A DNA stretch of 64,000 nt from Gemmatimonadota bacterium. GTDB taxonomy: Bacteria; JAAXHH01. Shown here piece after piece: positions 10,030 to 38,837 of the stretch; position 1 is the stretch's first letter; the number at the start of each line of letters is the position of its first letter. The notes below the pieces were generated by a model, which worked only from the letters and a program-made list of their open reading frames with translations, had not been told where the DNA came from and searched no databases. The stretch lies in the NCBI GenBank assembly GCA_009837395.1, contig VXTP01000030.1:19211-83210 (forward strand). Direction: 5' to 3'. Both the position numbers and the translations under genes were made by a program.

Positions 10030-10063
10030 TATTCCAATTTCCGGAACCGGGTCGGATTCGACG

Positions 10064-10120
10064 ATCCGGGGGCTCGCTCTACGGCCATCCGGGGGCTCGC
10101 TCTTCGGCTATCCGGGAGTT
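10064..10120. repeat. 23-bp tandem repeat x2.5 (ATCCGGGGGCTCGCTCT(A/T)CGGC(C/T)) upstream of tlpA-like gene
   Basis: The units are direct and adjacent: 10064-10086, 10087-10109, and a partial copy at 10110-10120. The array is intergenic, 55 nt before the start at 10176. Confidence 0.8.
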
Positions 10121-10175
10121 CTAAATAACCAGGCGTGGTCGGAACGGTAAACGATCGGCTGAAGGGGAGGAAAGT

Positions 10176-10901
10176 GTGAAAAGAGTATATACAACGTTTT
10201 TATGCGCAATGTTTGCCGCGGCCTTTGTCCTGTCCAACGTACAGGCGCAGACCGCGGACCAGGGCCAGGAGCCCCTGACCGAGGACGAGCAGAAGATCGT
10301 CGCCTACATCATGAAGCAGGTCTCCGAATCCAAGGCCGGCAAGCCGAATTTCGGTCCGGAAACGGCCATGGCCGTATACAATGAGCTCGGGATCCAGGTG
10401 ACCCCAAACATGGTCCCCCGCGTCCGGGCGGCCGTCGTGGCCGAGTTGAAGGCCATCGAGGCCCGGCTCATGCTGAAGGAAGGCAGCACCGCGCCCGATT
10501 TCAACCTGCCGGTTCTGGGCGGCGGCGAGGCCAGTCTATCCGCCCTGAAGGGGAAGGTGGTCGTGGTGAACTTCTGGGCCACCTGGTGTCCTCCCTGCCT
10601 CGTGGAGATGCCGGTCCTGAACGGACTCTACGAGACTTACCGGGAACAGGGTGTTGAGGTACTGGGACTTTCTCTCGACGAAGAGGGGCTTCCCATCACG
10701 AAACCCTTCGTCGAAAAGCTGAAAGTAACCTATCCCATCGTGGAATCGGACCGGAAGACCTACCAGGCGTACGGAAACGTGCTTACCATACCCCACACCT
10801 TCGTCATCGATCGCGAAGGCACCGTATCGAAGCGGTTCGTCAACAACCAGACGAAAGATGCTTTCGAGGCCGCGATCAAGGCCGCGCTGGCGAAGAAGTA
10901 A
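10176..10901 (+). CDS. TlpA-like thiol:disulfide oxidoreductase (redoxin/thioredoxin fold), secreted
   Basis: It has a signal peptide and a WCPPC active site (NFWATWCPPCLVEMP). The GTG start follows a GGGGAGG ribosome-binding site. Confidence 0.85.
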   Translation: MKRVYTTFLCAMFAAAFVLSNVQAQTADQGQEPLTEDEQKIVAYIMKQVSESKAGKPNFGPETAMAVYNELGIQVTPNMVPRVRAAVVAELKAIEARLMLKEGSTAPDFNLPVLGGGEASLSALKGKVVVVNFWATWCPPCLVEMPVLNGLYETYREQGVEVLGLSLDEEGLPITKPFVEKLKVTYPIVESDRKTYQAYGNVLTIPHTFVIDREGTVSKRFVNNQTKDAFEAAIKAALAKK

Positions 10902-10956
10902 GCGGGCAGGTGTCCGGGGCTGAAAGGCCAGGCGCCGGGGCTGACACCAGGACCGC

Positions 10957-12057
10957 CTACCGGTCTCGGTCCGCTCTGTAGGTTTCCATCGCATCCATGT
11001 TCAGCGAGACGCCCAGGCCGGGCCGGTCGGACACACGGATCCGTCCGCCTTCGATCCTTTCCGGCGGTTCGATGAGTTCGTGTCTCCACGGCACCTCTCC
11101 CCAGGCGTATTCCAGGACCTGAAACTCCGGATGGGCGGCCATGGCCTGCACGCCCGCCGCGATGGTCAACGGCCCGAAGGGTCCGTGCGGCGCGGTCGGA
11201 ATACCCCGGCCCTCCGCCATGGCGGCGACCTTCTTCAGTTCCCATAACCCACCCACGATCGTCACGTCCGGCATGATGACGTCCATCAGCCCCTGGTCCA
11301 GGACGGGCCAGAACCCCTCACGGTACATCAGGCTCTCGCCTCCTGCCAGCGGTACGTCGATGTGATCTTTAACGGTCCTGTAGCCTTCGTGGTCTTCGTC
11401 GGGCACGGGTTCCTCGTACCAGTACAGGTCCAGATCCCTGAGCGCGTCGAAGACCTCGCACCCGCCCCGGGCGGTGAAGTGGCTGTGGCAGTCGATCAGC
11501 AGGGACACGTCCGGACCGATCGCGGCGCGCACCGCTTCCATGCAGGCGATGCCCTCCCGGGCGTCCGAAGCCCGGTCGATGCCGGCAGGCATCCCGTCGA
11601 AGGGCGCGAGTTTCACGGCGTCGAATCCGTCCGCGACCGCGGCGGCCGCGTTCCGGGCGAACCCCGCGGGCGTGCGGTCGGTGGTGGCCCGGTTGATGTT
11701 GGCGTAGAGGGGGATCTCATCGCGGAAACGACCCCCGATGAGGTCGGCCGCCGGCACGCCCAGGACCTTGCCCTTGATGTCCCACAGGGCCTGGTCCAGG
11801 GCGCTCAACGCCATCACTTTAGGCCGGTCGACATGCGAAGGGAGGAGATCAGCCAGGATGCGTTCGATGGCGCCGGGATCGCGGCCGGCCAGCACGGGTT
11901 CGACCTGCTGCAGGAAGTCCACGCTCCCGGATCGCGCGCCCCCGGGATTCACCTCGCCATAACCGGTGATCCCCTTGTCGGTGTGCACCGCAAGGAACGT
12001 CCAGTCTCCCCGGTGATTCACGTGGACGGCGTGGGTCTGCAGGGCGGTTATCTTCAT
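10957..12057 (-). CDS. enolase-superfamily enzyme (mandelate racemase/muconate lactonizing enzyme family; acid-sugar dehydratase-like)
   Basis: It has the ALWDIKGKVLGVP (KxK) motif, a TIM-barrel metal-ligand region (LIDCHSH, YEEP) and is 366 aa. Confidence 0.85.
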   Translation of the reverse strand: MKITALQTHAVHVNHRGDWTFLAVHTDKGITGYGEVNPGGARSGSVDFLQQVEPVLAGRDPGAIERILADLLPSHVDRPKVMALSALDQALWDIKGKVLGVPAADLIGGRFRDEIPLYANINRATTDRTPAGFARNAAAAVADGFDAVKLAPFDGMPAGIDRASDAREGIACMEAVRAAIGPDVSLLIDCHSHFTARGGCEVFDALRDLDLYWYEEPVPDEDHEGYRTVKDHIDVPLAGGESLMYREGFWPVLDQGLMDVIMPDVTIVGGLWELKKVAAMAEGRGIPTAPHGPFGPLTIAAGVQAMAAHPEFQVLEYAWGEVPWRHELIEPPERIEGGRIRVSDRPGLGVSLNMDAMETYRADRDR

Positions 12058-12104
12058 GGTCTAACGCTACATTCTGTCATTGATTACGGCAACGCATTTG
12101 TTTA

Positions 12105-12173
12105 TATAACGCCTTGGCCGGGCCGTCTATAACGCCTTGGCCGGGGCGCCTATATTGCCTTGGCCGGGCCGGT
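12105..12173. repeat. 23-bp tandem repeat x3 (TATAACGCCTTGGCCGGGCCGTC) in divergent promoter region
   Basis: The units are at 12105-12127, 12128-12150 and 12151-12173. The array lies between the enolase-family gene (minus, start 12057) and the SDR gene (plus, start 12279). Confidence 0.85.
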
Positions 12174-12278
12174 GGTATTTGGTATCCTGCGGCCCAGGCA
12201 GCGTATCAGCAAAAAGAATTACATAACCAAACAGAAGTCCGACAGCCGACAACGAGTTTGTTAGACGAAGGGAGTGGC

Positions 12279-12983
12279 ATGAGTGCGCAACGCGTAGCGG
12301 TCATCACGGGAGCGGGACGCGGCATGGGAGCCGCCATCGCGAGGAACCTGGCCGGCCAGGGGTGGGCCGTATCGCTGCTGTCCCCCTCCGGGGCGGCGGA
12401 ATCACTCGCCGGTGAACTGGGCGGCATCGGCGTAACAGGGTCCGTCACGGACGAGGACGACCTGCGGAAACTGGTGGACCTGACCATGGACGCCCACGGA
12501 CGCATCGACGGCGTCGTCAACAGCACGGGACATCCGCCCAAGGGCGATCTCCTGGACATACCGGACGAAGACTGGCACGAGGGACTGGACATCGTGTTCC
12601 TCAACGTGGTGCGCATGACGCGCCTCGTCACCCCGATCATGACGGACCAGGGCGGCGGATCGATCGTAAACATCTCCACTTACGCCACCTTCGAACCGGA
12701 ACATTACTTTCCCGTTTCGACCGCCTTTCGGGCGGCCCTGGCGAGTTATACGAAGATCTACGCGGACAACCATGCCGGGGACAACATCCGGATGAACAAC
12801 ATCCTGCCGGGGTTCATCAACAGCCTCCCGGAATCGGAGGCCTTCAGGTCGCGCATTCCCATGGGACGTTACGGCACCGTGGAAGAGATCGCGGAAACGG
12901 CCGCTTTCCTGCTGTCGCCCGGAGCCGGCTATATCACCGGGCAGAACCTGCGCGTCGACGGGGGCATCACGCGTTCGGTCTAA
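12279..12983 (+). CDS. SDR family oxidoreductase
   Basis: The N-terminus VAVITGAGRGMGAAIA carries TGxxxGxG, with an NSTG and Y..K catalytic region. I used the internal ATG at 12279, which has a GAAGGGAG ribosome-binding site. The upstream track extension spans the repeat region. Confidence 0.85.
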   Translation: MSAQRVAVITGAGRGMGAAIARNLAGQGWAVSLLSPSGAAESLAGELGGIGVTGSVTDEDDLRKLVDLTMDAHGRIDGVVNSTGHPPKGDLLDIPDEDWHEGLDIVFLNVVRMTRLVTPIMTDQGGGSIVNISTYATFEPEHYFPVSTAFRAALASYTKIYADNHAGDNIRMNNILPGFINSLPESEAFRSRIPMGRYGTVEEIAETAAFLLSPGAGYITGQNLRVDGGITRSV

Positions 12984-12998
12984 GCGATCCACTCGTCG

Positions 12999-13754
12999 AT
13001 GGAGAGGGAGCTCATGGAACAGGCCGACCTGGCGTTCTTTCGTCAGAACGGATTCATCAACCTTGGTAAGGTCCTCGCGGACGAAGAGGTGGATCGTTTT
13101 CGCGATCTCTTCGACGAAGACCGCCGCAAGTTCCCCTATTTCTGGCATCCCTACGGCCACCACCAGGAGGCCAACTACGACGCCCTCGTCACCACGCCTG
13201 CCTTCGACGACCTGATCCGCCATCCCGCCATCTACGGCACCATCGAGGAACTGATGGGCGGTCCGCTCTGTTTCGGAGAGATCGGGCTGCGGTCCATGGG
13301 ACCGTACAAGGGCGAGTTCCACCAGCGCTGGCACCGTGACAAGGCCCACTGGCTCGACCATCCCCTCCGCATGGACTACATCCAGCTCATGGTCTATTTC
13401 ACCGACGTGGACGAGGATACCCACTGCTTCTCCATCTCGCCCGAAGGGGTCGATCAGCCTGTCCTGAAGGAGAGTAGCGCACAACTGGAGCGGGGTGTCT
13501 ACGACCTCCACGGGCCGGCGGGTACCTGCGCCTTGTTCAACGTATCGGTGCTCCACACGGCCACCACGCGTCCCACGCGGGCCGTGCGGAAGACCGCCCA
13601 GATCTACTACGGCCACCGGGACCGGGCACCGCTGGCCAATGATTCGGGGATACCCGCCACCCTCTGGCGGGACAGCGACGACCCGGAAACCCGGGCCTTC
13701 TATGGCGTCCTGAACGAACGCACTAAGCTCTACATGGCGGCTTTTGGGGGGTAG
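12999..13754 (+). CDS. phytanoyl-CoA dioxygenase (PhyH) family Fe(II)/2-oxoglutarate oxygenase
   Basis: The WHRD..H motifs (HQRWHRDKAHW..H) are typical of PhyH. An alternative start at 13014 has a GGAGAGGGAG ribosome-binding site. The gene follows the SDR gene after a 15-nt gap. Confidence 0.8.
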   Translation: MERELMEQADLAFFRQNGFINLGKVLADEEVDRFRDLFDEDRRKFPYFWHPYGHHQEANYDALVTTPAFDDLIRHPAIYGTIEELMGGPLCFGEIGLRSMGPYKGEFHQRWHRDKAHWLDHPLRMDYIQLMVYFTDVDEDTHCFSISPEGVDQPVLKESSAQLERGVYDLHGPAGTCALFNVSVLHTATTRPTRAVRKTAQIYYGHRDRAPLANDSGIPATLWRDSDDPETRAFYGVLNERTKLYMAAFGG

Positions 13755-13771
13755 GCGGGAACGTCCTGCGA

Positions 13772-14194
13772 TCAGACGAACTCCAGATCTCCTGCGTCAT
13801 TGACCCGCCGATAGTAGCAACCGGTCCGGTACTGGCCATCGCTGTCCTTCGTATGACAAGCACCGCCGCCCTGGGGCGTCACGAGAAAGACCACGGAATT
13901 CTGCTCGCAGTTAATGCGGACTTCATCGATTCCCAGCGCATTTCCCGATGTGGCGCCCTTGACCCACAGCTCGTTACGCGACGTGCTCCAGAACGTGGCG
14001 ATCCCGGTCTTCAGGGATTCGTCCAGGGCCAGGCGGTTGATGTAGGCCAGGATCAATACTTCCTTCGTAGACGAATCCTGCACGACTACCGGCAGGACGT
14101 CCTCCTCGATGCCCGCGATCTGCCTGAGTTTCGAGAAATCGAGGGATTCCTTCGATCCCTCTTCCAGGTGATCGGATCCTGATGATGTCGCCAT
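13772..14194 (-). CDS. hisI: phosphoribosyl-AMP cyclohydrolase
   Basis: The 140-aa product reads VVQDSSTKEVLILAYINRLALDESLKTGIATFWSTSRNELWVKGATSG, which matches the HisI signature. Confidence 0.85.
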   Translation of the reverse strand: MATSSGSDHLEEGSKESLDFSKLRQIAGIEEDVLPVVVQDSSTKEVLILAYINRLALDESLKTGIATFWSTSRNELWVKGATSGNALGIDEVRINCEQNSVVFLVTPQGGGACHTKDSDGQYRTGCYYRRVNDAGDLEFV

Positions 14195-14204
14195 GGTTTC
14201 TCCA

Positions 14205-14241
14205 AGTATCTACAAAGTGTCTACAGAGTATCTACAAAGTG
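14205..14241. repeat. imperfect 12-13-bp tandem repeat x3 (GTATCTACAAAGT) just upstream of hisI
   Basis: The sequence is agtatctacaaagtg-tctacagag-tatctacaaagtg. It begins 11 nt upstream of the hisI ATG on the minus strand. Confidence 0.7.
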
Positions 14242-14298
14242 CGGTTGTGAGAGAGCGGCGCAGGGATATACGGGCAGATTAAATGCGCCTGTGATCTG

Positions 14299-15045
14299 TT
14301 ATTGCAAATGATCGTCCGCCGCATGGCGGGCGCCGACGCCCTTCTGCATGCGCATAAGCTGCTTCTGTCGGGGTGAAAGCCCTTCGAACCACTCGTCCCG
14401 GAAACCATCGTGGGGATCGAGCTGGAAGAGGAGCATGGACTTGCGGTAATGCCCGAACAGGGCGTGGCGGTTGCGGTCGGTGGTATTCGCTCCGCCGCCG
14501 TGCCAGCACTGTCCGTTGAAGATCAGCACGCTGCCCTCGGAAGCCTCGGGTTGATACACGTGCGGCACTTCCATGCCCTCCGGCGGACCCGCCCATCCGC
14601 TCTTGTGTGAACCGGGGACGATGCGCGTGCCGCCGATCGCCGCGTCGAAATCGTCCAGCATCCAGACGGTGTTCATCATCACGGGGGAAACCGGGTTCAA
14701 CATGTGCTGGGGTATGTCGCTGTGGAAGTCCTGGTAGCCGTCCCCCGGACGCACGATGCGTGAACTCAGGCTGCCCAGCACCAGGGTCTTGTCCAACATC
14801 CTCTCCAGGATGGGCAGCACGACGGGGTGATCGACGATCTGGAGAAACACCGGGTCGAGCGTGGGCAGGTTCCGCACCAGCAGCGACGTGCCCCCGCGGT
14901 TCTCGTAACCGGCCTCGCCGTGTGCCGCGGCTACGCGGATCAATGACTCGCGAAGCTCACGTACCTGGGATGCTGTCAGCACATCGGGCAACAGAGTGAA
15001 GCCGAAGGTGTTGATTTCGGCGAGGGCCTGATCGAAGGCATCCAT
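14299..15045 (-). CDS. phytanoyl-CoA dioxygenase (PhyH) family oxygenase
   Basis: It has a H-x-D...H facial-triad context (DFHSDIP, HGGG) and is 248 aa. Its start overlaps the stop of the upstream DLH gene by 1 nt (TGATG). Confidence 0.8.
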   Translation of the reverse strand: MDAFDQALAEINTFGFTLLPDVLTASQVRELRESLIRVAAAHGEAGYENRGGTSLLVRNLPTLDPVFLQIVDHPVVLPILERMLDKTLVLGSLSSRIVRPGDGYQDFHSDIPQHMLNPVSPVMMNTVWMLDDFDAAIGGTRIVPGSHKSGWAGPPEGMEVPHVYQPEASEGSVLIFNGQCWHGGGANTTDRNRHALFGHYRKSMLLFQLDPHDGFRDEWFEGLSPRQKQLMRMQKGVGARHAADDHLQ

Positions 15046-15899
15046 CAGTCGCTTCCGATGGTGCGCTTGAGATAGGCCTTCAACCGCTCCCAGGCGTCCA
15101 GCGCGGGTTCCTCGTTCTTCGGATCGCGCTCCACGTACAGCCAGAACCCGTGGTTGACGTCGTCGTAGATGTGCACGTCGTTCTCCACGCCGGCCTGGCG
15201 GAGCGCGGCGACGAAGCCTTCCACCTGTTCGGGGGAGGGGCCGCGGTCGAGTCCGGCGAAGGTGCCGTAGACCTCGTGGTGTATGGCGCTCAGCCTTTCG
15301 GGATCGTCGAGCAGGCGCCCGTAAAAGATGGCGGTGGCGTCATGGTTCTCGCCGCCCAGGGCGTAGCTCAGGGCGACCCCGCCGCCGTAGCACCAGCCCA
15401 TGGCACCGATCTTGCCGTTCACGTCCGGCCGCGATCTCAGGTAGGCTGCCGCCGCGTCCAGGTTGCGGATGATCTTGTCCATGTCGGCCAGCGTTTCCCG
15501 CACGAGCGCCATGTTCTCGTCGCGGTTGCTCCCCGTCCGGCCCGAATACAGATCGGCCGCCAGGGCGACGTAGCCCTCCGCGGCCAGCGCGTCGGCCACC
15601 TGCCTTACGCGGTCCACCAGGCCGTTCCATTCGTGGATCAGGATGACGGCGCCCCGGGGACCCGGCCCTTCCGGCTCGGCGAGATAACCCCTGGTCGCCT
15701 GGTCTTCATCGAAATAAGCCAGGTCGCCGCCGCGGGGCGCGCCGGCCTCGCCGAGAATGGCATCGGGGATCTCGCCCTCGGTCGTCGGCGCGTGCGGTAT
15801 CTGCTGCCCGTGGATCGCCAGTGCCGCAACGGCGAGGATGATGAACGCAGCGAACGAAAAAGGCATCGAAATTCGCCTGCTGGATGTTATTCCGGCCAT
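15045..15899 (-). CDS. dienelactone hydrolase family protein, secreted (alternative start 15866 MPFSF..)
   Basis: It has an alpha/beta-hydrolase GWCYGG nucleophile elbow and DLH-like ILIHEWNG. The N-terminus MAGITSSRRISMPFSFAAFIILAVAALA is signal-like with an RR. The 349-aa track ORF is trimmed. Confidence 0.75.
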   Translation of the reverse strand: MAGITSSRRISMPFSFAAFIILAVAALAIHGQQIPHAPTTEGEIPDAILGEAGAPRGGDLAYFDEDQATRGYLAEPEGPGPRGAVILIHEWNGLVDRVRQVADALAAEGYVALAADLYSGRTGSNRDENMALVRETLADMDKIIRNLDAAAAYLRSRPDVNGKIGAMGWCYGGGVALSYALGGENHDATAIFYGRLLDDPERLSAIHHEVYGTFAGLDRGPSPEQVEGFVAALRQAGVENDVHIYDDVNHGFWLYVERDPKNEEPALDAWERLKAYLKRTIGSD

Positions 15900-16083
15900 G
15901 ATGTTAACCCCTCTTTCAAACCGGGAGGCCCCGCTCCGAGAATACGGATCGAAAGCCCCGCGGGTATTTACTGTTTTCCATGCACGACGAGTTTCAATAT
16001 ACTTATCGAAACGAAGCGAATCAATCGTGAAATCCTTCGAGATAACCACCTTCCCTATCACGTATTTCCCCGCGGGAGACCCC

Positions 16084-16839
16084 ATGAAAAACAAACTGAA
16101 AGAGAAGCTGCGAAACGGCGAAGTTACCTACGGCATATCCGTCGGCACGCCCTGTAACGACATCGTGGAGCTGGCGTCTAACCTGGCCTTCGACTGGATA
16201 TGGTTCGATGGCGAACACGGCCCGTTGAATACAGAGATCCTTCATCCCATGATCCAGGCGACCCGGGGCCGGGACGTCACCCCGCTCGTCCGCGTGCCGT
16301 GGAACGACATGGTGCATATCAAGAAGGCGCTGGACATCGGGGCGGAAGGCCTGATCATTCCCTGGGTCAACAACCGGGAGCAGGCGGAGTACGCCGTCCG
16401 CTCGGCCAAGTATCCGCCCATGGGCATCCGCGGAATGGGTGCCCGCTTCCTCAATACCGCCGGACTCGATCTGGCCGAATACCTCCGCACCGCCAACGAA
16501 GAAACGTTCATCATGGTCCAGATCGAAACGGTCGAAGCCGTGGAGAACATGGACGACATACTCACCACGCCCGGCGTCGACGCTTTCCTGGTCGGACCGA
16601 ACGACCTCGCGGCCTCCCATGGCTACGTGGGCCAGCCGACGCATCCGGAGATGGAAAAGATCGTCAAGGGAATCATGGACCGTGGAAAGGAACTCGGCGT
16701 GCCTGGCGGATACGCGTTCATCTCGAAGGACGCCAACCGGAAGCGGATCGCGGAGGGCTTCCAGTGGATCACCCTCGGAAGCGATATGGGGTTCCTGGCC
16801 CAGGCGGCCCGGGCGGCGCTCGCCGAGGTGGGCAGGTAG
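16084..16839 (+). CDS. HpcH/HpaI family 2-keto-3-deoxy-acid aldolase
   Basis: The sequence MKNKLKEKLRNGEVTYGISVGTP..VRVPWND..IETVEAVENMDDI..GPNDL fits the HpcH/HpaI family. I used the internal ATG at 16084. The upstream track extension crosses an AT-rich divergent promoter. Confidence 0.85.
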   Translation: MKNKLKEKLRNGEVTYGISVGTPCNDIVELASNLAFDWIWFDGEHGPLNTEILHPMIQATRGRDVTPLVRVPWNDMVHIKKALDIGAEGLIIPWVNNREQAEYAVRSAKYPPMGIRGMGARFLNTAGLDLAEYLRTANEETFIMVQIETVEAVENMDDILTTPGVDAFLVGPNDLAASHGYVGQPTHPEMEKIVKGIMDRGKELGVPGGYAFISKDANRKRIAEGFQWITLGSDMGFLAQAARAALAEVGR

Positions 16840-16848
16840 CCTATCGGA

Positions 16849-18192
16849 TCAGTCCCCGTTCCGGTCTTTCGAAAGCCGGCGGCGAATGGCCATGGCGTGG
16901 GCAGACAGGCCTTCGGCTTCGGCAAGCCGGATCGCGGCCGGCCCCAACCGTTTTTCCGCCTTTTCGTTAACGGCGAACAGACTGGTGATCTTCAGGAAAT
17001 CCCGGACGCTCAAGGGAGAATGGAACCGGGCGCTGCCCCCGGTGGGCATGATGTGGCTGGGACCGGTGACATAGTCGCCCAGGGCCTCGGAGGAATGCTC
17101 ACCCACGAAGATCCCCCCGGCGTTTTGAATCCCGTCCACCAGCGGCCAGGGATCCGCCACCAGCAGGCACAGGTGCTCCGGCGCGTAGCTGTTTGCCAGT
17201 TCGCACGCCTCTACCAGGTCCGATACGAGCACGATCCCTCCGTTCCGTGCCAGGGAGGAACGGATAATGTCCGCCCGGTCCAGCTCGGAAAGTTGCTCCT
17301 CCACGGCCTGTTGCACCGCCAGGGCCAGCGCGGACGACGGCGTGATCAGTATGGCGCTCGCCATCGTATCGTGCTCGGCCTGCGCCAGCAGGTCGGCCGC
17401 CGCGAGGTCCGGACCGGCCGTCTCGTCGGCGATGAGCAGGGTCTCGGTGGGGCCGGCGAGCTGGTCGATATCCACGATACCGTACACCTGGCGCTTGGCC
17501 AGAGTCACGAAGACGTTTCCCGGCCCCACGATCTTGTCGACATGGGGAACCGTTTCGGTGCCATGGGCTATCGCCGCGATCGCCTGGGGCCCGCCGATCC
17601 GGTAGACCGCGTCCGCGCCCGCCACGGAAGCCGCGGCCAGCACGGCGGATGGCACCGCGCCGTCCCTTCCGGGCGGCGTGACCACGACGACCTCCCGGAC
17701 GCCCGCGACCCGGGCGGGGATCACGGCCATCAGCAGCGAGGAGGGATAGGCCGCGCCACCGCCGGGCACGTAGACGCCCACCCGGTCCAGCGGCCGGACG
17801 ATCTGGCCGGTTCCACCCTCTTCGTCCCAGTGCGTCCAGGACCCGGCCGACTGCCGCCCGTGAAAAGTCCGTATGCGGCCGGCCGCGGTCTCCAGGGCAT
17901 CGAGCAACCCGGAAGGCAGCGATGCGGCCACCTCGTCGATTTCGGATCGGGGGACCTCGAAAGTGTCCGGGGCGCTTCCGTCCAGCAGACGGGCGTACTT
18001 CCTGATCGCATCATCCCCGTTGTCTCTAACGTCGTTGACGATGCGGGCTACTGCCTGTTCCGCCGTCAGGGGCTCGCCGAAGAGTTCCCGGTTCCGCGCT
18101 TCGATCTCCGGCGTGTGCATGGCTTCGTTCAGCGGCCGCCGCCGCAGGATGCTCGACCCGGCCTCTTCGGCGGACAGTATCCGGATGTTCAT
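16849..18192 (-). CDS. hisD: histidinol dehydrogenase
   Basis: [36 protein letters not shown] is the HisD signature, and the 447 aa length fits. Confidence 0.9.
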
Positions 18193-18211
18193 CTTCCCCT
18201 CACTGGTTTGT

Positions 18212-19264
18212 TCATGAGGTATTCCTCGTCGCGGTCCTCAGTGGCGCCAGCGCCTCGAGTATGGGACCACAACCGAATTTCACGCAGTCCGTCGCCGGGA
18301 GCCCGGTCTCCCCTTCGACCCGGTCCACTTCCCGCCTGGCATCGTCCATGGACATGCCGAAGCAGTTGAGCGATACGGCCACGACACGGCACGGGAACAG
18401 GGGCCGGGCAATGTTCTCGTGGGCGGTTATCATCTCCGCGTAGGACGGCACGGCCACGGGAAGGTTGCGCATCACTTCCCTCCCCGGCTGATGACACAGT
18501 ACCAGGGCCTGCGGGGCCGCCCCGTGAAGCAGACCGAGCGATACGCCCGAATAGGAAGGATGCAGAATCGTACCCTGCCCTTCGATGACCAGCAGTTCCC
18601 GATGCTTGCGTTCCAGCACGAGTCTTTCCACCGCGCCCGAGATGTAGTCCGCCGCCACGGTATCCACCGCGATGCCCGATCCGGCGATCATGATGCCGGT
18701 CTGCCCGGTAGCCACGAACTCGGCGTCCCAGCCTGCCTCGCGGGCCGCGCGGTCGATTTCGATCGCGGCGATCTTCTTGCCGATGCTGGAGTCGGCGCCG
18801 ACGGTCAGCACACGCAGGTTGGGGAGGGCGTGGGCCAGGTGCCGCCCCACGTCCAGGTCTCCGGGCGGCTGCCGCACGTCCCACAACCGCACGCCTTTCC
18901 GCCCGGCATGCCGGGCGAACGCCTCGTCCTCGTTGAGAAAAGTATGCAGCCCGTTTACCACCTCGAGCCCGTGCTCGATGGCCTCATGGATGACTTCCCG
19001 CCAGGCGTCGGGCAAAACGCCCCCCGGCGTCGCGATGCCGATGACCAGCGACGTCGGTTCGAAGGTCATCGCATCCTGCAGGGTCGAAACGACCGGGATG
19101 CCCTTACCCACCTCGAGCACGTCTTCGAGTTTCCTTCCGGCGTGCACGCTGTCGAGCACCGCCACGGTCTCGTCGGACTTGTAGCGGACCAGTGACGCGG
19201 CCGTCTTGGAGGAGAACGTGCCCAGTTGGCCCTCGGTGAGAATGACCATTCGCCTGAATTGCAT
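18212..19264 (-). CDS. DUF1611 domain protein (Rossmann-like N-domain plus P-loop-like C-domain)
   Basis: The 350-aa product has the VILTEGQ..KTA..LVRY architecture typical of DUF1611. Its start codon lies inside repeat unit 1. Confidence 0.7.
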   Translation of the reverse strand: MQFRRMVILTEGQLGTFSSKTAASLVRYKSDETVAVLDSVHAGRKLEDVLEVGKGIPVVSTLQDAMTFEPTSLVIGIATPGGVLPDAWREVIHEAIEHGLEVVNGLHTFLNEDEAFARHAGRKGVRLWDVRQPPGDLDVGRHLAHALPNLRVLTVGADSSIGKKIAAIEIDRAAREAGWDAEFVATGQTGIMIAGSGIAVDTVAADYISGAVERLVLERKHRELLVIEGQGTILHPSYSGVSLGLLHGAAPQALVLCHQPGREVMRNLPVAVPSYAEMITAHENIARPLFPCRVVAVSLNCFGMSMDDARREVDRVEGETGLPATDCVKFGCGPILEALAPLRTATRNTS

Positions 19265-19309
19265 GTTATTCGCCTGAGTTGCGAATTACTCGCCTGGGTT
19301 GCGAATTCC
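19248..19309. repeat. 21-bp tandem repeat x3 (ATTCGCCTGARTTGCRAATTA) spanning DUF1611 start
   Basis: The units are at 19248-19267, 19268-19289 and 19290-19309. The ATG at 19262-19264 falls within unit 1. Confidence 0.8.
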
Positions 19310-19318
19310 CGCCGATCC

Positions 19319-20350
19319 TCAGCTCATCGAAACGACGCGGCCGGTTTCCAGGGATTCCGTTGCGGCGTCCAGTACCTTCATCAGCGCCAGCATCTCGTGG
19401 GGCTGGATGGCCAGTTCGGCGCCGTCGGCCAGCACGGCCGCGATGTTCCGGTAGTAGTCCTCCCAACTGCCTTTCACCGGATCCAGGATCATCTCCTCTA
19501 CCGACCCGTCCCGCTCCGCCGCCACCCGGACACGGTCTTCGGGTGCCTCCACCGCGTCCTCGATCCTGCCCTTCTTCATCCAGTCCTCCTGGGGATCGAG
19601 TCCTGTCTTTACGAGGGATCCCCGGGTACCCAGCACGTACCAGTGGGGCTTGGATATATGCGACAGATTGCTGATTTCCATCCGGTACTCGGCACCCGTT
19701 TCGAAATAAAGCGTGCAGTTGACATGATCTTCTATGTCCCCTTCCCACACGCGTTTGTGGCCTTTGCAGTGGACTGCCGCGGGGCGGCCGGCCAGCAGTT
19801 GCAGGCCCTGGTCGACCAGGTGGGCGCCCCAGTCGTAAAGCAGGCCGCCGCTGTCCGCCCGGCTTGTCCGCCAGCCCCTGGATGCCCGGAACCGGTGCAC
19901 CGCCCTTTCGACCAGGAAGGGATCACCAAGCAGACCATCCTCTATTGCCTTGCGCACGGTCAGATAGCCCCAGTCCCAGCGGCGGTTGTGGAAGACGCTC
20001 AGCATGACCCCGCGCCGCCGGCTGACCGCGATCATTTCCTCGGCTTCGGCGGCCGACATGCACATGACCTTGTCGACGACCACGTGTCTTCCGGCCTCCA
20101 TGGCCTCAATGGCCAGGGACGCGTGGGTATGGTGAGGCGTGGCCAGAATAACCAACCGGATGCCGTCGTCCGCAAGGAGATCGGTCAGCGTCTCATGAGT
20201 ATCCACGGACCAGTCCCGACGCGCCTGCGCACGGCGTTCCGGGTCCCGGCTGGCAACGGCAGTGAGTTGCAGCCCCTCGGTCCGCGAAACCAGGTAGGCG
20301 TGAAAAAGCCGTCCCGCCAGTCCGTAGCCCACGATGCCCGTTTGTATCAT
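19319..20350 (-). CDS. Gfo/Idh/MocA family oxidoreductase
   Basis: MIQTGIVGYGLAGRLFH plus a C-terminal alpha/beta dimerization domain fit the family. I used the internal ATG at 20350. Confidence 0.85.
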   Translation of the reverse strand: MIQTGIVGYGLAGRLFHAYLVSRTEGLQLTAVASRDPERRAQARRDWSVDTHETLTDLLADDGIRLVILATPHHTHASLAIEAMEAGRHVVVDKVMCMSAAEAEEMIAVSRRRGVMLSVFHNRRWDWGYLTVRKAIEDGLLGDPFLVERAVHRFRASRGWRTSRADSGGLLYDWGAHLVDQGLQLLAGRPAAVHCKGHKRVWEGDIEDHVNCTLYFETGAEYRMEISNLSHISKPHWYVLGTRGSLVKTGLDPQEDWMKKGRIEDAVEAPEDRVRVAAERDGSVEEMILDPVKGSWEDYYRNIAAVLADGAELAIQPHEMLALMKVLDAATESLETGRVVSMS

Positions 20351-20464
20351 GACGATTCCCCACTGCCATACACACGCCCACGCCCGCATCCGCGTCCTCC
20401 GCCCCGCCGGTTATGCGGGGGACAATATACGGGATGGGCCGGATGCATGGCAAACGCGAATTGG

Positions 20465-20492
20465 GTGGACTATAATGTCCGTGACAATCCAC
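20465..20492. promoter_or_regulatory. TATAAT hexamer embedded in inverted repeat (GTGGAC-TATAAT-GTCC..ATCCAC); candidate -10 plus operator for sulfatase gene
   Basis: The sequence gtggactataatgtccgtgacaatccac lies about 90 nt upstream of the sulfatase ATG at 20581. Confidence 0.3.
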
Positions 20493-20580
20493 CGGCGGCT
20501 CACTAATTTGCCGTTTCGACCGTCTTTAGGCCGCACCTTCCGATCTCACACCGGGTAACTACCCGATCCCGAGGCCCATC

Positions 20581-22032
20581 ATGGCCACATCGCGACCGAA
20601 CGTGCTCTGCATCCTCACCGACGACCAGGGCGTCTGGGCGGCGGGTTGTTACGGCAACGGGGAAATCCGCACGCCGAGCATCGACCGGATCGCGGAGACC
20701 GGGGTTCGCTTCGATCGTTTCTTCGTGGCTACGCCCGTCTGCTCCCCCAGCCGCGCGACGCTGCTTACCGGCCGCATCCCCTCCCAGCATGGCGTGCACG
20801 ACTGGATCAAGGGAGGCAATGTCGGCGAGGGCGCTGCTTCCTACCTCGAAGGAGAAACGGCGTATACCGATGTGCTCGCGGCCCACGGCTGGCGATGCGG
20901 CCTCAGTGGCAAGTGGCACCTGGGCAACAGCACCCTGCCCCAGCACGGGTTCTCCCACTGGTTCACCCACCAGTTCGGCGGCGGCCCCTACAATGATGCG
21001 CCCATGGTCCGGAACGGCGTCCCGGTCACCGAGCCGGGGTACGTCACGAACGTCATTACCGACGATGCGCTGGCCTTCATCGACCGCCACGCCAACCAGG
21101 ATGATCCGTTCTACCTGGGCGTCCACTACACCGCGCCGCACAGTCCGTGGACCGGACATCCGCAGGATATCGTCGATTCCTACGACGGCTGCCCTTTCGT
21201 TTCCTGCCCCCAGGAACCCATACACCCCTGGGCGGGCGGCCTGACCCGCGAATGCATGGGTAACCGGGAAAGCCTGCAGGGCTACTTCGCGGCCGTCACG
21301 GCCATGGACCTCGACGTCGGCCGGTTACTCGACCGGCTCGATCATCACGGCATCCGCGAAGACACCCTGGTGGTCTTCCTGAGCGACAACGGTTTCAGCC
21401 TGGGGCACCACGGGTTCTGGGGCAAGGGCAACGGAACCAGCCCGTTGAACATGTACGAGAACTCCATCCTGGTGCCTGCGATTGTCAGCCAGCCCGGACG
21501 CCTGCCCGAAGGCGCCGTGCAGCCGGCGATGATCAGCGCCTACGATTTCATGCCCACGCTCCTGTCCTACCTGGATCTGCCCGTGCCCTGGGACCGCAAC
21601 CTGCCGGGGCGTAATGCCCTGGACGCCTGGATGTGCGGGGCGGCACGGCAAGCTCGGACGGACCAGGAAGACCAGCCAGCCAGGGGCAACGCGTCCGACG
21701 CCGGCCGGGACCACGTCGTGGTATTCGACGAATACGGCGGCACGCGCATGATCCGCACCGAATCGTGGAAATACATACACCGGTATCCCGACGGACCCGA
21801 CGAACTGTACGACCTGGAAAACGATCCCGACGAACGGGCGAATCTCGCGGACGATGCCGGTTATGCCGACAGGCGCCGGTCGCTCCGCGGCGAGTTGGAG
21901 GGCTGGTTCGAACGTTATGCCGACCCGGACCGGGACGGCCGCACCAGGCCGGTCTCCGGCGCCGGCCAACTGCGACCCGTGGGCGGCGCGTGGGATGACG
22001 ACTCGCCGGATTTCGAACAACTGAAATCGTGA
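20581..22032 (+). CDS. sulfatase (formylglycine-dependent, CSPSR motif), no signal peptide
   Basis: It has the LCILTDDQG..TPVCSPSRATLLTGR catalytic core and a C-terminal sulfatase domain. It is 483 aa. Confidence 0.9.
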   Translation: MATSRPNVLCILTDDQGVWAAGCYGNGEIRTPSIDRIAETGVRFDRFFVATPVCSPSRATLLTGRIPSQHGVHDWIKGGNVGEGAASYLEGETAYTDVLAAHGWRCGLSGKWHLGNSTLPQHGFSHWFTHQFGGGPYNDAPMVRNGVPVTEPGYVTNVITDDALAFIDRHANQDDPFYLGVHYTAPHSPWTGHPQDIVDSYDGCPFVSCPQEPIHPWAGGLTRECMGNRESLQGYFAAVTAMDLDVGRLLDRLDHHGIREDTLVVFLSDNGFSLGHHGFWGKGNGTSPLNMYENSILVPAIVSQPGRLPEGAVQPAMISAYDFMPTLLSYLDLPVPWDRNLPGRNALDAWMCGAARQARTDQEDQPARGNASDAGRDHVVVFDEYGGTRMIRTESWKYIHRYPDGPDELYDLENDPDERANLADDAGYADRRRSLRGELEGWFERYADPDRDGRTRPVSGAGQLRPVGGAWDDDSPDFEQLKS

Positions 22033-22043
22033 AGGAGAACTCG

Positions 22044-22805
22044 ATGGCTGACACCAAAATCGCCGTTACGCTCTATACGTTGCGCGACTTCGTGCAGACG
22101 CCGGCCGACATCGCGGACACCCTGAAGAAAGTAAAGTCCATCGGTTATGATCATATTCAGCTTTCGGCCCTCGGTCCCGTCGATCCCGCGGAACTCGGCA
22201 GCATGATCCGTGACGCGGGACTGAAGGTCTGCGCCACGCACGTGCCCTTCGAACGCCTGCAGGATGAACCGAACAGCGTGATCGAGGAGCACCACCTCTG
22301 GGGATGCGAGCATATCGCCGTCGGGTCCATGCCGCGGTCCTACTGGGACGACCCGGACGGGTTCTCCCGGTTCGCGGCGGACGCGTCGGTCGTGGCGCTC
22401 AGGCTGAAAAAAGCCGGCATGTCCTTCAGCTATCACAATCACCATACGGAACTCGTGCGAGTCGGCGACCGGACGGGCCTGGCCATCCTGGTGGAGAAGA
22501 GCGATCCCGCCCTGTGCTTCGAGATCGACACCTACTGGATCCAGTACGGCGGGGGTGATCCGATCCACTGGATCGAACGGGTAAGCAACCGGTGCCCGGT
22601 CATCCACTTCAAGGACCTGGGCGTGTCGGGCAGGGAGCAGGTGATGGCCGAGATCGGCGAGGGGAACATGAACTGGTCCGGCATCGTCGCCGCCTGCGAG
22701 ACCGCCGGGGCCCAGTGGTACGTGGTCGAGCAGGATACCTGCGCCGGTAATCCCTTCGACAGCATCGCCATCAGCTATCGCAACATGAACGCCATGGGAC
22801 TTTGA
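22044..22805 (+). CDS. sugar phosphate isomerase/epimerase (xylose isomerase-like TIM barrel)
   Basis: It has AP-endonuclease-2/TIM-barrel motifs (EHIAVGS, HNHH, EIDTYW). I chose the ATG at 22044, which has a GAAGGAG ribosome-binding site 6 nt upstream. The track starts at the GTG at 22029. Confidence 0.8.
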   Translation: MADTKIAVTLYTLRDFVQTPADIADTLKKVKSIGYDHIQLSALGPVDPAELGSMIRDAGLKVCATHVPFERLQDEPNSVIEEHHLWGCEHIAVGSMPRSYWDDPDGFSRFAADASVVALRLKKAGMSFSYHNHHTELVRVGDRTGLAILVEKSDPALCFEIDTYWIQYGGGDPIHWIERVSNRCPVIHFKDLGVSGREQVMAEIGEGNMNWSGIVAACETAGAQWYVVEQDTCAGNPFDSIAISYRNMNAMGL

Positions 22806-22845
22806 AGATCCTTCCGGTCACCACGTATACCGATACGAGGACAAC

Positions 22846-23625
22846 ATGATCGACCTTTCAGGCAAGACGGCGCTGATCAGCGGTTCCTCCCGCGGAATCG
22901 GCAAAGGGATCGCACTGGAAATGGCCCGCGCCGGGGCGGACGTCGCCGTCAACTACTTCCGACACCGGGACGACGGCGAGGCCGTAGCGGACGAAATCCG
23001 CGCCATGGGGCGGCGGGCGGTCGTCATCGGCGCGGACGCGTCGGACCGGTCCGCCGTGGACGAGATGGTGGAACAGACCGCCGAGGATCTCGGCGGGCCC
23101 GATATCGTCGTGGCCAATGCCTACTATTCCACGCGGGAGCCCTTTCTCGAGATGGACGTGGATGAACTGCGGAAAACCTACGATGTCAGCCTCTTCGGCG
23201 CCTTCCACGTCGCCCAGGCCGGTGCCCGGAAGATGGCGGCCGGAGGGAAGGGCGGCAGCATCCTCTTCATCAGTTCGGTCATGTCCTTCCTGCCTTTCCC
23301 TACGTCGCTCGCCTACTCTTCGGCCAAGGCCGGCATGAACCACATGGCGGCCATCATCGCCCTGGAGCTGCTGGAGCACCGCATCCGCGTGAACGTGATC
23401 GAACCCGGGTGGACCGACACGCCCGGCGAGCGCCAGTACTCCACGGAGCAGGAACTCGAGGAGGGCGGCAGGCGGCTTCCCTGGGGCCGGATGGGCACCA
23501 TCGAGGACCTGGGCAAGGCCGCCACCTTTCTTTGTTCCGACGCCGCGGACTACATCACCGGAGAAGTCCTGCGCGTAGACGGTGGATTCTGGCTGAAGCG
23601 CGGCACGGCCTCCATCAAGGAGTGA
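22846..23625 (+). CDS. SDR family oxidoreductase (FabG-like)
   Basis: It carries GSSRGIGKG, NAY, S..YSSAK motifs and is 259 aa. Confidence 0.85.
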   Translation: MIDLSGKTALISGSSRGIGKGIALEMARAGADVAVNYFRHRDDGEAVADEIRAMGRRAVVIGADASDRSAVDEMVEQTAEDLGGPDIVVANAYYSTREPFLEMDVDELRKTYDVSLFGAFHVAQAGARKMAAGGKGGSILFISSVMSFLPFPTSLAYSSAKAGMNHMAAIIALELLEHRIRVNVIEPGWTDTPGERQYSTEQELEEGGRRLPWGRMGTIEDLGKAATFLCSDAADYITGEVLRVDGGFWLKRGTASIKE

Positions 23626-23680
23626 ATTCCCGCGCGACCGGGCTGGATCACTCGGGCCAACCCCCCGACAGGGCCGGGAC

Positions 23681-23730
23681 AGTCCATGTCAGACCATGCC
23701 AGACCAGGCTAGACCAGGCATGACCAAGCT
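23681..23730. repeat. 10-bp tandem repeat x5 (AGACCAGGCN) covering candidate start codons of large membrane protein A
   Basis: The units are agtccatgtc, agaccatgcc, agaccaggct, agaccaggca and tgaccaagct. In-frame ATGs at 23696 and 23720 lie in the units. Confidence 0.8.
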
Positions 23731-38763: not shown

Positions 38764-38837
38764 GATACTCCAGGCTGCCTGAGGCAATGGTTTTCCGGCG
38801 GGCCCATTTACGGGCGCTTACCGCTGCCGGCGGGCGC

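What the first reader, a model, noticed from the sequence alone, without database searches (positions are those of the whole stretch)
10064..23730. Recurrent short tandem repeats placed exactly at promoters and start codons of five unrelated genes
Five intergenic arrays of 2.5-5 direct copies, with unit 10-23 bp and unrelated sequences, occur at 10064-10120 (before the tlpA-like gene), 12105-12173 (divergent enolase/SDR promoter), 14205-14241 (before hisI), 19248-19309 (spanning the DUF1611 ATG) and 23681-23730 (spanning membrane protein A start codons). In a 64-kb, 90%-coding window this density of promoter-proximal microsatellite-like arrays is unusual. They could be arrays of operator sites, or contingency loci whose copy number alters expression or N-termini. 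Two arrays carry the start codon inside a repeat unit.
Basis: seen in the sequence. Interest (0 to 1): 0.6.

Follow-up and report, generated by a model that had tools for sequence, protein, structure and literature searches.

The report
Variable tandem duplications in intergenic spacers
The five repeat arrays are real, copy-number-variable short tandem duplications. They fill every kind of gap between genes in this sponge-associated bacterial lineage, gene ends included, so they look like a mutational habit filtered by selection and not a promoter-targeted control system.

Summary
All five arrays exist as described (TRF). They are far beyond chance: 10 of 35 spacers carry an array, against 0.02 expected in shuffles.

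They belong to a larger set. The window holds 9 spacer arrays, with units of 10-24 nt that are mostly not multiples of 3. It also holds 4 in-frame arrays inside genes.

The window is contig VYFH01000048.1 of MAG GCA_009842485.1, a sponge-associated lineage labelled Latescibacterota or Gemmatimonadota. Copy number changes between strains of about 98-99.6% identity at A1, A4 and 38811. It also changes between 19 syntenic related species: A4 has 1-5 copies and A5 has 0 to about 10.

The placement claim fails. In the relatives, arrays are densest in convergent 3'-3' spacers (3.2 per kb) and sparsest in divergent promoter spacers (0.8 per kb). Three window arrays duplicate stop codons. No promoter-like site coincides with an array. 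The units are locus-specific.

Best explanation: slippage or microhomology-driven tandem duplication, raised about 3-6-fold in this clade, kept only where an intact gene copy survives.

One exception is the hisI array. Its core is a conserved pair of palindromic TGTAnnTACA boxes beside the ribosome-binding site, probably a real operator.

This is a new example of a known kind (VNTR/minisatellite). Interest is modest.

The parts
9417..9467 (.). A0: 24-nt unit x2.1. Starts 6 nt after the uvrC stop codon and lies 200 nt upstream of the CMD-family gene.
   Evidence: TRF score 67. Two copies are also present in L011. Relatives L065 and L038 have one copy or different sequence. Invariant among close strains.
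10064..10120 (.). A1: 23-nt unit x2.3 in the CMD-TlpA spacer, about 56 nt upstream of the probable GTG start of the TlpA/redoxin gene (10176).
   Evidence: TRF score 92. Strain L009 lacks exactly one 23-nt unit, and L008 has a SNP in a unit. The sequence is not present in related species.
12058..12113 (.). Conserved ~55-nt core of the divergent MR_MLE|SDR1 spacer, probably promoter or operator DNA. Array A2 begins at its edge.
   Evidence: GGCGTTATATAAACAAATGCGTTGC..ATCAATGACAGAATGTAGCGTTA is conserved in every relative that has this spacer, while the flanks are not. The promoter reading is by eye only. The scan tool did not call it.
12105..12173 (.). A2: 23-nt unit x2.9 (TATAACGCCTTGGCCGGGCCGNC). 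This is a triplication of the sequence flanking the conserved core.
   Evidence: TRF score 106. Relatives have 1 copy, L011 has 2 and the window has 3. Invariant among close strains.
14204..14241 (-). A3: 11-nt unit x3.4. Tandem palindromic boxes TGTAGATAC(A) directly upstream of the GGAG ribosome-binding site of hisI (ATG at 14194).
   Evidence: TRF score 60. A pair of boxes at 11-nt phase, 0-3 nt from the SD, is found once per locus in 13 of 18 relatives at the search threshold and always before hisI. By eye it is present in about 15 and absent in L022, L047 and L050. Copy number is 2-3 across species.
19248..19309 (-). A4: 20-nt unit x2.9. The unit holds the start codon and first four codons of DUF1611 (ATGCAAyyCAGGCGA + GTAAT). 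It lies between the GFO-family stop (19319) and the DUF1611 ATG (19264).
   Evidence: TRF score 74. The ancestral spacer is 17-23 nt with no repeat. Copies across species and strains: 1 (L012), 2 (L014, L065), 3 (window, L011, L017), 4 (strains L001, L005, L007, +19 nt), 5 (L013). Upstream copies have lost the ATG, except in L011 where the unit is 18 nt and in frame.
23680..23735 (+). A5: 10-nt unit (nnGACCrGGC) x3.7-4.6, running into the ATG (23720) and first codons of DUF6785 membrane protein A. It contains two upstream ATGs, at 23686 (a 9-codon upstream ORF) and 23696 (in frame).
   Evidence: TRF scores 46-55. Zero units in L018, L022, L047 and L050; 2-3 in most species; 5-6 in L021; about 10 in L016. 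The start codon and N-terminus shift with the array. Invariant among close strains.
38811..38853 (.). 20-nt unit x2.2, 100% identical. It duplicates the last codons and stop codon of secF (stop at 38838-38840, minus strand).
   Evidence: TRF score 86. Strains L084, L087 and L089 carry a single copy and are 32 nt shorter. The junction is flanked by the 9-nt direct repeat CCGGCGGGC.
49857..49905 (.). 14-nt unit x3.5. It duplicates the stop codon region of surA (stop at 49887-49889, minus strand).
   Evidence: TRF scores 56-64. Each unit carries the CCCTGAAC stop context.
51220..51271 (.). 14-nt unit x3.7 between the surA start and the stop of the upstream rotamase gene (51263-51265), overlapping that stop.
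   Evidence: TRF score 62.
40781..40837 (-). In-frame coding array in secD, 24 nt x2.4 (PASAG-rich linker).
   Evidence: TRF score 77. Translation.
48325..48372 (-). In-frame coding array in holB (DNA polymerase III delta'), 21 nt x2.3 (SSGRGEG).
   Evidence: TRF score 89. The 397-aa reading is intact, with a GPSGVG N-terminus and GC3 of 0.78.
63077..63145 (-). In-frame coding array in a 193-aa lipoprotein-like hypothetical protein, 21 nt x3.3 (ATAPDAD).
   Evidence: TRF score 103. Translation.
42481..42512 (-). In-frame coding array, 9 nt x3.6, in the Polysacc_deac_2 gene.
   Evidence: TRF score 50.

Best explanation
The arrays are locus-specific short tandem duplications of the VNTR/minisatellite type, with units of about 10-25 nt. 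I infer they arise by replication slippage or microhomology-mediated misalignment, and then expand and contract by slipped-strand mispairing.

The process acts throughout the genome of this sponge-associated clade, at a higher rate than in most bacteria. Selection decides what survives:
- inside genes, only in-frame units persist;
- in spacers, any unit persists;
- duplications that straddle a gene start or stop persist because one intact copy of the gene end remains.

Because each array copies whatever lay at that spot, some contain a start codon (A4, A5), some a stop codon (38811, 49857, 51220), and some a piece of a real regulatory element (A2, A3). The apparent promoter and start-codon placement in this window reflects where spacer DNA exists. 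Convergent spacers here are only 6-118 nt long.

Shown: the arrays exist, they exceed chance, copy number is polymorphic, the clade is enriched, arrays occur in every spacer class, and coding arrays are in frame. Inferred: the slippage mechanism and the neutrality of most arrays.
For: 1. Non-random and spacer-restricted. 10 of 35 spacers carry an array against 0.02 expected. Density is about 1.9 per kb of spacer and about 0.07 per kb of coding sequence.

2. Frame filter. All 4 coding arrays in the window have periods divisible by 3 (24, 9, 21, 21). Only 1 of 9 spacer arrays does (24, 23, 23, 11, 20, 10, 20, 14, 14). A hand-computed hypergeometric p is 0.007. In the relatives, 19 of 23 coding arrays are divisible by 3.

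3. No 5' preference. In 19 related species the densities are convergent 3.19, co-directional 1.57 and divergent 0.77 arrays per kb of spacer (convergent vs divergent p=9e-4). The hisD|HpcH and DUF6785b|a tail-to-tail spacers are 9 and 6 nt in the window. In relatives they are 50-175 nt and built of arrays, whose units often include the stop codon.

4. Dynamic. All six indels of 19 nt or more between strains of about 96.5-99.6% identity lie in spacers. Three are unit gains or losses at arrays: A1 -23, A4 +19, and 38811 +/-32 flanked by a 9-nt direct repeat. A fourth is flanked by GACCGA microhomology.

5. Lineage-wide. The clade has 1.72 arrays per 10 kb against 0.54 in 48 unrelated loci (p=6e-9). 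At score 60 or more the figures are 1.27 and 0.22 (p=3e-11). Relatives carry different arrays in the same spacers.

6. Units are unrelated to one another and not dispersed elsewhere. There are no Rfam matches. No promoter-like site lies at an array.

7. Upstream copies of A4 have lost their out-of-frame ATG, as expected if the extra copies are tolerated and not used.
Against: - A3's two-box core is conserved across most species at a fixed distance from the ribosome-binding site. At least that array is built on a functional element, and its extra box could matter.
- A5 persists as an array in 13 of 17 species. That could reflect function and not only a slippage hotspot.
- In the relatives, half of the spacer arrays (21 of 42) have periods divisible by 3. 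This exceeds the one third expected from a purely frame-blind process. My coding/spacer classifier is crude.
- The cause of the raised duplication rate is unknown and could not be tested.
- Relatives were sampled only around hisD, about 20 kb each.
- Some strain differences could be assembler differences, for example L008 vs L009.
- The promoter type of this lineage is unknown, so a sigma-70 scan is a weak test.
Confidence: 0.75

Rival explanations
1. Operator-site arrays. Each array would be a set of tandem binding sites for a transcription factor or RNA-binding protein that controls the adjacent gene.
For: This holds for A3 only. Palindromic TGTAnnTACA boxes at 11-nt phase, in 2-3 copies, lie 0-3 nt from the hisI ribosome-binding site. 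They occur once per locus and are conserved in most relatives while the rest of the spacer is not. A2 copies the edge of a conserved core.
Against: - A0 and A1 are absent from most relatives.
- A4 and A5 are lineage-specific expansions of the gene's own 5' end.
- The extra A2 copies are unique to the window and L011.
- The units are unrelated and occur nowhere else.
- No regulator gene is adjacent.
- Equivalent arrays sit in 3'-3' spacers and over stop codons.
Confidence: 0.08
2. Contingency loci or phase-variable promoter tandem repeats. Reversible gain and loss of copies would switch or tune expression or N-termini. Known examples are the simple-sequence contingency loci of Haemophilus and Neisseria and the 54-58-bp promoter tandem repeats of M. 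tuberculosis (PMC12817950).
For: - Copy number differs between close strains at A1, A4 and 38811.
- L008 and L009 share the same SNPs and contig ends but differ by one A1 unit, which hints at heterogeneity within a population.
- A4 and A5 change the distance between upstream signals and the start codon. They also create upstream ATGs or short upstream ORFs.
Against: - The genes are housekeeping or metabolic (hisI, SDR, DUF1611, redoxin).
- Copy changes lie upstream of the last ATG, so they cannot switch the reading frame.
- A2, A3 and A5 are invariant among ten strain-level assemblies.
- Copies have diverged by 7-20%, so the tracts are poor slippage substrates.
- Arrays are as common or more common at 3' ends.
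- No promoter-like site lies inside a unit.
Confidence: 0.12
3. Chance similarity, low-complexity GC-rich sequence, or assembly artefact.
For: The genome is GC-rich (62-65%). Several arrays have only about 2 copies.
Against: - Dinucleotide shuffles give 0.02 arrays against 10 observed.
- The same arrays occur in independent short-read MAGs, re-assemblies and Logan assemblies.
- Homologous arrays occur in long-read complete chromosomes of related species.
- The arrays are shorter than a sequencing read.
Confidence: 0.01
4. Remnants of mobile or dispersed repeat elements, such as REP/BIME, MITEs or transposon footprints.
For: They are intergenic, as REP elements are.
Against: - Each unit occurs only at its own locus. 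No family is shared between arrays and there is no dispersal in the window.
- The copies are head-to-tail direct repeats, not palindromic.
- Up to 5 copies of units up to 24 nt do not fit target-site duplications.
- Units derive visibly from the local gene ends.
Confidence: 0.02

Closest known systems
Bacterial VNTR/minisatellite loci, as used for MLVA typing in Xanthomonas, Yersinia, Burkholderia and Mycobacterium (e.g. PMC4045669; general knowledge)
   Same: Head-to-tail copies of 10-25-nt units. They are mostly intergenic and locus-specific in sequence. Copy number is polymorphic between strains. Slipped-strand mispairing is the accepted mechanism.
   Different: Density here is high. About a quarter of all spacers of at least 30 nt carry one, and the rate is about 3-6 times that of unrelated loci. 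Copy numbers are low (2-5). Many arrays straddle start or stop codons. The host is an uncultured sponge-associated clade, not a pathogen.
Phase-variable promoter tandem repeats of Mycobacterium tuberculosis (dop, lpdA, cysG; PMC12817950)
   Same: Tandem repeats lie immediately upstream of genes, and copy number varies between closely related strains.
   Different: The Mtb units are 54-58 bp and contain a whole promoter, so copy number changes promoter dose. Here the units are 10-24 nt, no promoter-like site lies within them, and equivalent arrays lie at 3' ends.
Simple-sequence contingency loci of Haemophilus, Neisseria and Campylobacter (general knowledge)
   Same: Repeat tracts at promoters or 5' ends of genes whose length changes by slippage.
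   Different: Contingency tracts have 1-7-nt units with many perfect copies. They shift the reading frame or the -35/-10 spacing, and they sit in surface or restriction-modification genes. None of these features is met here.
Tandem operator boxes such as MetJ metboxes (8-bp palindromes in 2-5 tandem copies) or PhoB/OmpR direct repeats at 11-bp phase (general knowledge; a resemblance, not a test)
   Same: This applies to A3 only. It has short palindromic boxes repeated in tandem at about one helical turn, it overlaps the translation/transcription start region of a biosynthetic gene, and the number of boxes varies between species.
   Different: No cognate regulator has been identified. The box sequence TGTAGATACA matches no operator that I could test. 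The other arrays lack any conservation.

Membership tests
VNTR / minisatellite (slippage-type tandem repeat) | Head-to-tail direct copies of a unit of about 10-100 bp | tested here: met
   TRF gives periods of 10-24 nt, 2.1-4.6 copies and 71-100% matches.
VNTR / minisatellite (slippage-type tandem repeat) | Copy number polymorphic between strains or close species, by whole units | tested here: met
   A1 loses 23 nt in L009. A4 gains 19 nt in L001, L005 and L007. 38811 has one copy in L084, L087 and L089. Across species A4 has 1-5 copies, A5 has 0 to about 10, A2 has 1-3 and A3 has 2-3.
VNTR / minisatellite (slippage-type tandem repeat) | Locus-specific unit, not a dispersed family | tested here: met
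   Each unit is found only at its own array. The only shared 8-mer between any two units is within chance expectation.
Contingency locus / phase variation | A change in repeat number switches the reading frame or promoter spacing of the gene | tested here: not met
   The arrays lie upstream of the last, conserved ATG, so the frame is unaffected. No promoter hexamers flank or lie in the arrays. The promoter type of the lineage is unknown, so the spacing part of this test is weak.
Contingency locus / phase variation | High-frequency length heterogeneity within a population | not testable with these tools
   This needs read mapping, for example of SRR9841428, SRR9841436 and SRR9841441. The only hint is that L008 and L009 differ by one A1 unit.
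Contingency locus / phase variation | Association with surface, virulence or restriction-modification genes | tested here: not met
   The flanking genes are redoxin, MR_MLE, SDR, hisI and DUF1611. Only the DUF6785 protein is a membrane protein.
Promoter tandem repeats (M. tuberculosis type) | The unit contains a complete promoter | tested here: not met
   The units are 10-24 nt, too short for -35 plus -10. None of the 5 sigma-70-like sites in 9300-24000 lies in an array.
Operator / iteron array | Unit sequence conserved in orthologous spacers of related species | tested here: inconclusive
   Met for A3, where the box pair is present in most relatives. Not met for A0, A1, A4, A5 or the extra copies of A2.
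Operator / iteron array | A cognate DNA-binding protein, encoded nearby or shown to bind | not tested
   No regulator domain appears among the neighbouring genes. Binding cannot be tested here.
REP/BIME/MITE dispersed repeats | The same element at many loci, with palindromic or terminal inverted-repeat structure | tested here: not met
   No dispersed copies were found. The repeats are direct.
Known structured RNA | Match to an Rfam family | tested here: not met
   There are 0 matches at gathering threshold in the whole window.

The most novel reading that the evidence does not exclude
In this sponge-associated clade, short tandem duplication would be the main way intergenic DNA is created, with spacers growing out of copied gene ends. 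A subset of arrays would have been co-opted as tunable translation-initiation regions. On this reading, the start-codon arrays A4 and A5 reposition Shine-Dalgarno-like sequence (AGGCGAG, 5 nt before the DUF1611 ATG). They also create coupled mini-ORFs, and they move the start codon of a membrane protein. The number of boxes at hisI would set repression strength.
Probability: 0.12. Interest if true: 0.55.

Novelty: new member of a known kind. Interest (0 to 1): 0.3.

Why it matters
This is mainly a caution. Arrays that appear to sit precisely at promoters and start codons can be produced by a frame-blind duplication process plus purifying selection. In a 92%-coding genome, almost every spacer lies upstream of some gene.

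Three modest positives follow.
- The uncultured clade has a measurable mutational signature: 3-6-fold more short tandem duplications than unrelated loci, with spacers expanding from 6-9 nt to more than 100 nt purely through arrays. That could point to a lineage-specific replication or repair trait.
- The arrays are ready-made strain-typing markers for sponge-symbiont population studies.
- The conserved TGTAnnTACA box pair at hisI and the 55-nt MR_MLE|SDR core are candidate cis-regulatory elements in a phylum with no experimental genetics.

Tried and rejected
- **Rfam scan of the whole window:** no known RNA at any array.
- **Sigma-70 promoter and terminator scan of 9300-24000:** 5 promoter-like sites against 2.9 expected, none at an array. 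Terminator-like sites were at or below expectation. My by-eye promoters in the A2 core (TTGATT-17-TATATA and TTGCCG-17-TAGCGT) did not meet the tool's criteria, so I keep them only as a lead.
- **Search for the A3 box elsewhere, to test for a regulon:** single boxes with up to 2 mismatches number 26 against 14.7 expected, and the hits are not informative. The two-box pattern occurs only before hisI.
- **Common motif or dispersed family among units:** none found.
- **The array at 48325 as a spacer array:** rejected. The 397-aa holB reading is intact and the repeat is in frame. This lowers the spacer count from 10 to 9.
- **The three other large strain indels (31708, 34877-34904, 37216):** they are not tandem-unit changes, so not all spacer indels are array events.
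- **Helical periodicity of unit lengths:** across the clade, unit lengths span 8-47 nt with no clear 10.5-nt pattern.
- **Cause of the raised duplication rate (loss or gain of repair genes):** I could not address this.

Full report
**Observation**

| Array | Coordinates | Unit x copies | Matches | Score |
|---|---|---|---|---|
| A1 | 10064-10116 | 23 nt x2.3 | 93% | 92 |
| A2 | 12105-12171 | 23 nt x2.9 | 88% | 106 |
| A3 | 14204-14240 | 11 nt x3.4 | 84% | 60 |
| A4 | 19250-19307 | 20 nt x2.9 | 84% | 74 |
| A5 | 23680-23735 | 10 nt x3.7-4.6 | 80-85% | 46-55 |

The raw sequence agrees. Pfam and public gene calls confirm the gene context.
- A1 lies between a CMD-family gene and a TlpA/redoxin gene.
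- A2 lies in the divergent MR_MLE|SDR spacer.
- A3 lies directly before the GGAG ribosome-binding site of hisI on the minus strand.
- A4 lies between a GFO-family stop codon and the DUF1611 ATG, and contains that ATG.
- A5 runs into the conserved ATG (23720) of a DUF6785/DUF6784 membrane protein.

**The set is larger than reported**

With the full gene map, the window is about 92% coding. It holds 13 arrays with TRF score of at least 50 and period of at least 7.

Nine lie in spacers: the five above, plus 9417-9467, 38811-38853, 49857-49905 and 51220-51271. Four lie in genes: secD (24 nt), a polysaccharide deacetylase (9 nt), holB (21 nt) and a 193-aa hypothetical protein (21 nt).

The holB array had first looked intergenic because some assemblies call a truncated gene. 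The 397-aa reading is intact.

Ten of 35 spacers carried an array, against 0.02 expected from 200 dinucleotide shuffles. One of those ten is the holB array. Density is about 1.9 arrays per kb of spacer and about 0.07 per kb of coding DNA.

All four coding arrays have periods divisible by 3. Only one of nine spacer arrays does (hand-computed hypergeometric p = 0.007).

**Origin and relatives**

The window is 100% identical to contig VYFH01000048.1 of MAG GCA_009842485.1, from a sponge metagenome series.

A scan with HisD found 19 syntenic loci from related species, with 79-93% HisD identity. Many come from complete chromosomes of about 3.7-3.9 Mb. They are labelled Candidatus Latescibacterota, Gemmatimonadota or simply 'bacterium'.

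**Copy-number variation between strains**

Among ten strain-level assemblies, L009 lacks exactly one 23-nt unit of A1. The 98.85%-identical strains L001, L005 and L007 have an extra 19-nt unit in A4. A0, A2, A3 and A5 are invariant.

In the 31-52 kb region, strains L084, L087 and L089 carry one copy of the 38811 unit, and the junction is flanked by a 9-nt direct repeat.

All six indels of 19 nt or more between strains lie in spacers. Three are unit changes at arrays. One of the other three is flanked by GACCGA microhomology.

**Variation between species**

- **A4.** The ancestral GFO-DUF1611 spacer is 17-23 nt and has no repeat. In the window's subclade, the 20-nt segment containing the start codon and first codons is present 1, 2, 2, 3, 3, 3, 4 or 5 times. 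Upstream copies have lost the ATG (ATATGC has become ATTCGC, ATCCGC or ATCTGC). The exception is L011, where the unit is 18 nt and therefore in frame.
- **A5.** The array has 0 units in four species, 2-3 in most, 5-6 in L021 and about 10 in L016. The inferred N-terminus grows from MKPIS to MTVKPIS to MTKLTTKPIS.
- **A2.** This is a lineage-specific triplication of the flank of a ~55-nt core that is conserved in every species.
- **A0 and A1.** These are absent from most relatives. The relatives instead carry different arrays in the same spacers, for example GGAAGACA x5 over the MR_MLE ribosome-binding site in L020.

**Test of the placement claim**

Three window arrays duplicate stop codons (secF, surA, rotamase), and A0 starts 6 nt after the uvrC stop. 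As many arrays therefore touch stops as touch starts.

The window's convergent spacers are only 6-118 nt long and hold no arrays. In the relatives, the tail-to-tail spacers hisD|HpcH and DUF6785b|DUF6785a are 50-175 nt long. They are largely built of arrays whose units often include the stop codon and the last codons of the gene.

Across 254 orthologous spacers, array density by class was as follows:

| Spacer class | Arrays per kb |
|---|---|
| Convergent (3'-3') | 3.19 |
| Co-directional | 1.57 |
| Divergent (5'-5') | 0.77 |

The convergent versus divergent difference has p = 9e-4. The parts about 'inside genes' and 'invariant copy number' are not met.

None of the five sigma-70-like sites in 9300-24000 coincides with an array. 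There are no Rfam matches. The units are locus-specific.

**Lineage effect**

The 19 related loci (377 kb) carry 1.72 arrays per 10 kb. Forty-eight unrelated hisD loci (735 kb) carry 0.54 (p = 6e-9). At score 60 or more the figures are 1.27 and 0.22 (p = 3e-11).

The window's nearest relatives are richest, at 2.3-4.4 per 10 kb. The most distant clade members are near background.

In the relatives, 42 of 65 arrays are in spacers or at gene edges. 19 of 23 coding arrays are in frame.

**Mechanism**

The most economical reading is a frame-blind tandem-duplication process: slippage or microhomology-mediated misalignment, followed by slipped-strand expansion and contraction. It is unusually active in this clade, and purifying selection filters its products.

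Duplications inside genes survive only if they are in frame. Duplications in spacers survive freely. Duplications that straddle a gene end survive because one intact copy of the start or stop remains.

Shown here:
- the frame filter;
- the occurrence of arrays in all spacer classes;
- whole-unit polymorphism;
- microhomology at two junctions;
- loss of out-of-frame upstream ATGs.

Inferred, not shown: the slippage mechanism and the neutrality of most arrays. The cause of the raised rate is unknown.

**Exception: A3**

A3 is not just debris. TGTAGATAC(A) is itself a small palindrome (TGTA-nn-TACA). A pair of such boxes at 11-nt phase lies 0-3 nt from the hisI ribosome-binding site in most relatives. 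It occurs once per 20-kb locus, and the rest of the spacer is unconserved.

I rate it about even odds that this is an operator for an unidentified dimeric regulator. Tandem MetJ boxes are a resemblance drawn from memory, not a test. The window and a few relatives have a third box.

**Comparison with known systems**

The arrays meet the defining features of bacterial VNTR/minisatellite loci. They do not meet the features tested for three other classes:
- contingency loci, because there is no frame or spacing switch and the gene classes are ordinary;
- M. tuberculosis-type promoter tandem repeats, whose units of 54-58 bp contain a whole promoter (PMC12817950);
- dispersed repeat elements.

Large surveys find bacteria generally not enriched in short tandem repeats, with lineage-specific exceptions (PMC12699852). 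This clade appears to be one such exception for 10-25-nt units.

**Verdict**

The promoter and start-codon placement is an effect of where duplications are tolerated. This is a new member of a known kind, of modest interest.

Noticed in passing
window 12058-12113: A ~55-nt core (minus strand GGCGTTATATAAACAAATGCGTTGC..ATCAATGACAGAATGTAGCGTTA) is conserved in every relative that has the MR_MLE|SDR1 divergent spacer. In the window, L011 and L038 it abuts the MR_MLE ATG, which may mean a leaderless transcript. Other species insert a 20-150-nt leader carrying an SD. It is probably back-to-back promoters or an operator.
   Followed up: partly
window 14204-14240 and relatives (e.g. L021 13960, L038 14024): The hisI boxes are small palindromes (TGTA-nn-TACA) at 11-nt phase, fixed 0-3 nt from the SD, and occur once per locus. 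This is a candidate operator for an unknown regulator of histidine biosynthesis in this clade.
   Followed up: partly
window 31449-52197 vs L084/L090: Strain divergence is mosaic. About 96.5% identity holds over 31.4-42.6 kb, but only about 5 mismatches occur over 42.6-52.2 kb. This suggests recent recombination or a local sweep.
   Followed up: no
window 32000-36200: A low-GC stretch (0.55 against about 0.63) carries a GmrSD_C (type IV restriction-like) gene and an HSDR_N_2 gene. Gene-call lengths differ between strains. It may be a small defence islet.
   Followed up: no
window 47500-48693: holB (DNA polymerase III delta') is called as 397 aa in one assembly and 244 aa in others. The long form has the expected GPSGVG N-terminus, so the short calls are truncations. 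It contains an in-frame SSGRGEG x2.3 insertion.
   Followed up: yes
L012, L014-L017, about 6400-6550 (orthologues of window 20581-22032): The sulfatase gene carries species-variable in-frame tandem repeats (units of 24, 24, 30, 9 and 42 nt) at the same site. The duplication process also remodels a protein linker.
   Followed up: no
window 10176 vs 10209: The TlpA/redoxin gene probably starts at GTG 10176, which has a conserved GGAGGA SD 4 nt upstream in the window and relatives. Public gene calls use ATG 10209.
   Followed up: partly
L008 vs L009 (window 7047-15910): Two assemblies share the same contig ends and the same 10 SNPs relative to the window. They differ by one A1 unit and one SNP inside the array. 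This is either heterogeneity within a population or an assembler difference.
   Followed up: no
window 23720-27634: Two paralogous DUF6785/DUF6784 membrane proteins (about 36% identical) sit tail-to-tail, 6 nt apart. The arrangement is conserved across the clade.
   Followed up: no
L015 4431-4547: A ~56-nt tandem duplication copies the 3' end of the SDR2 gene together with the spacer upstream of DUF6785a. This is a larger example of a gene-end duplication.
   Followed up: no
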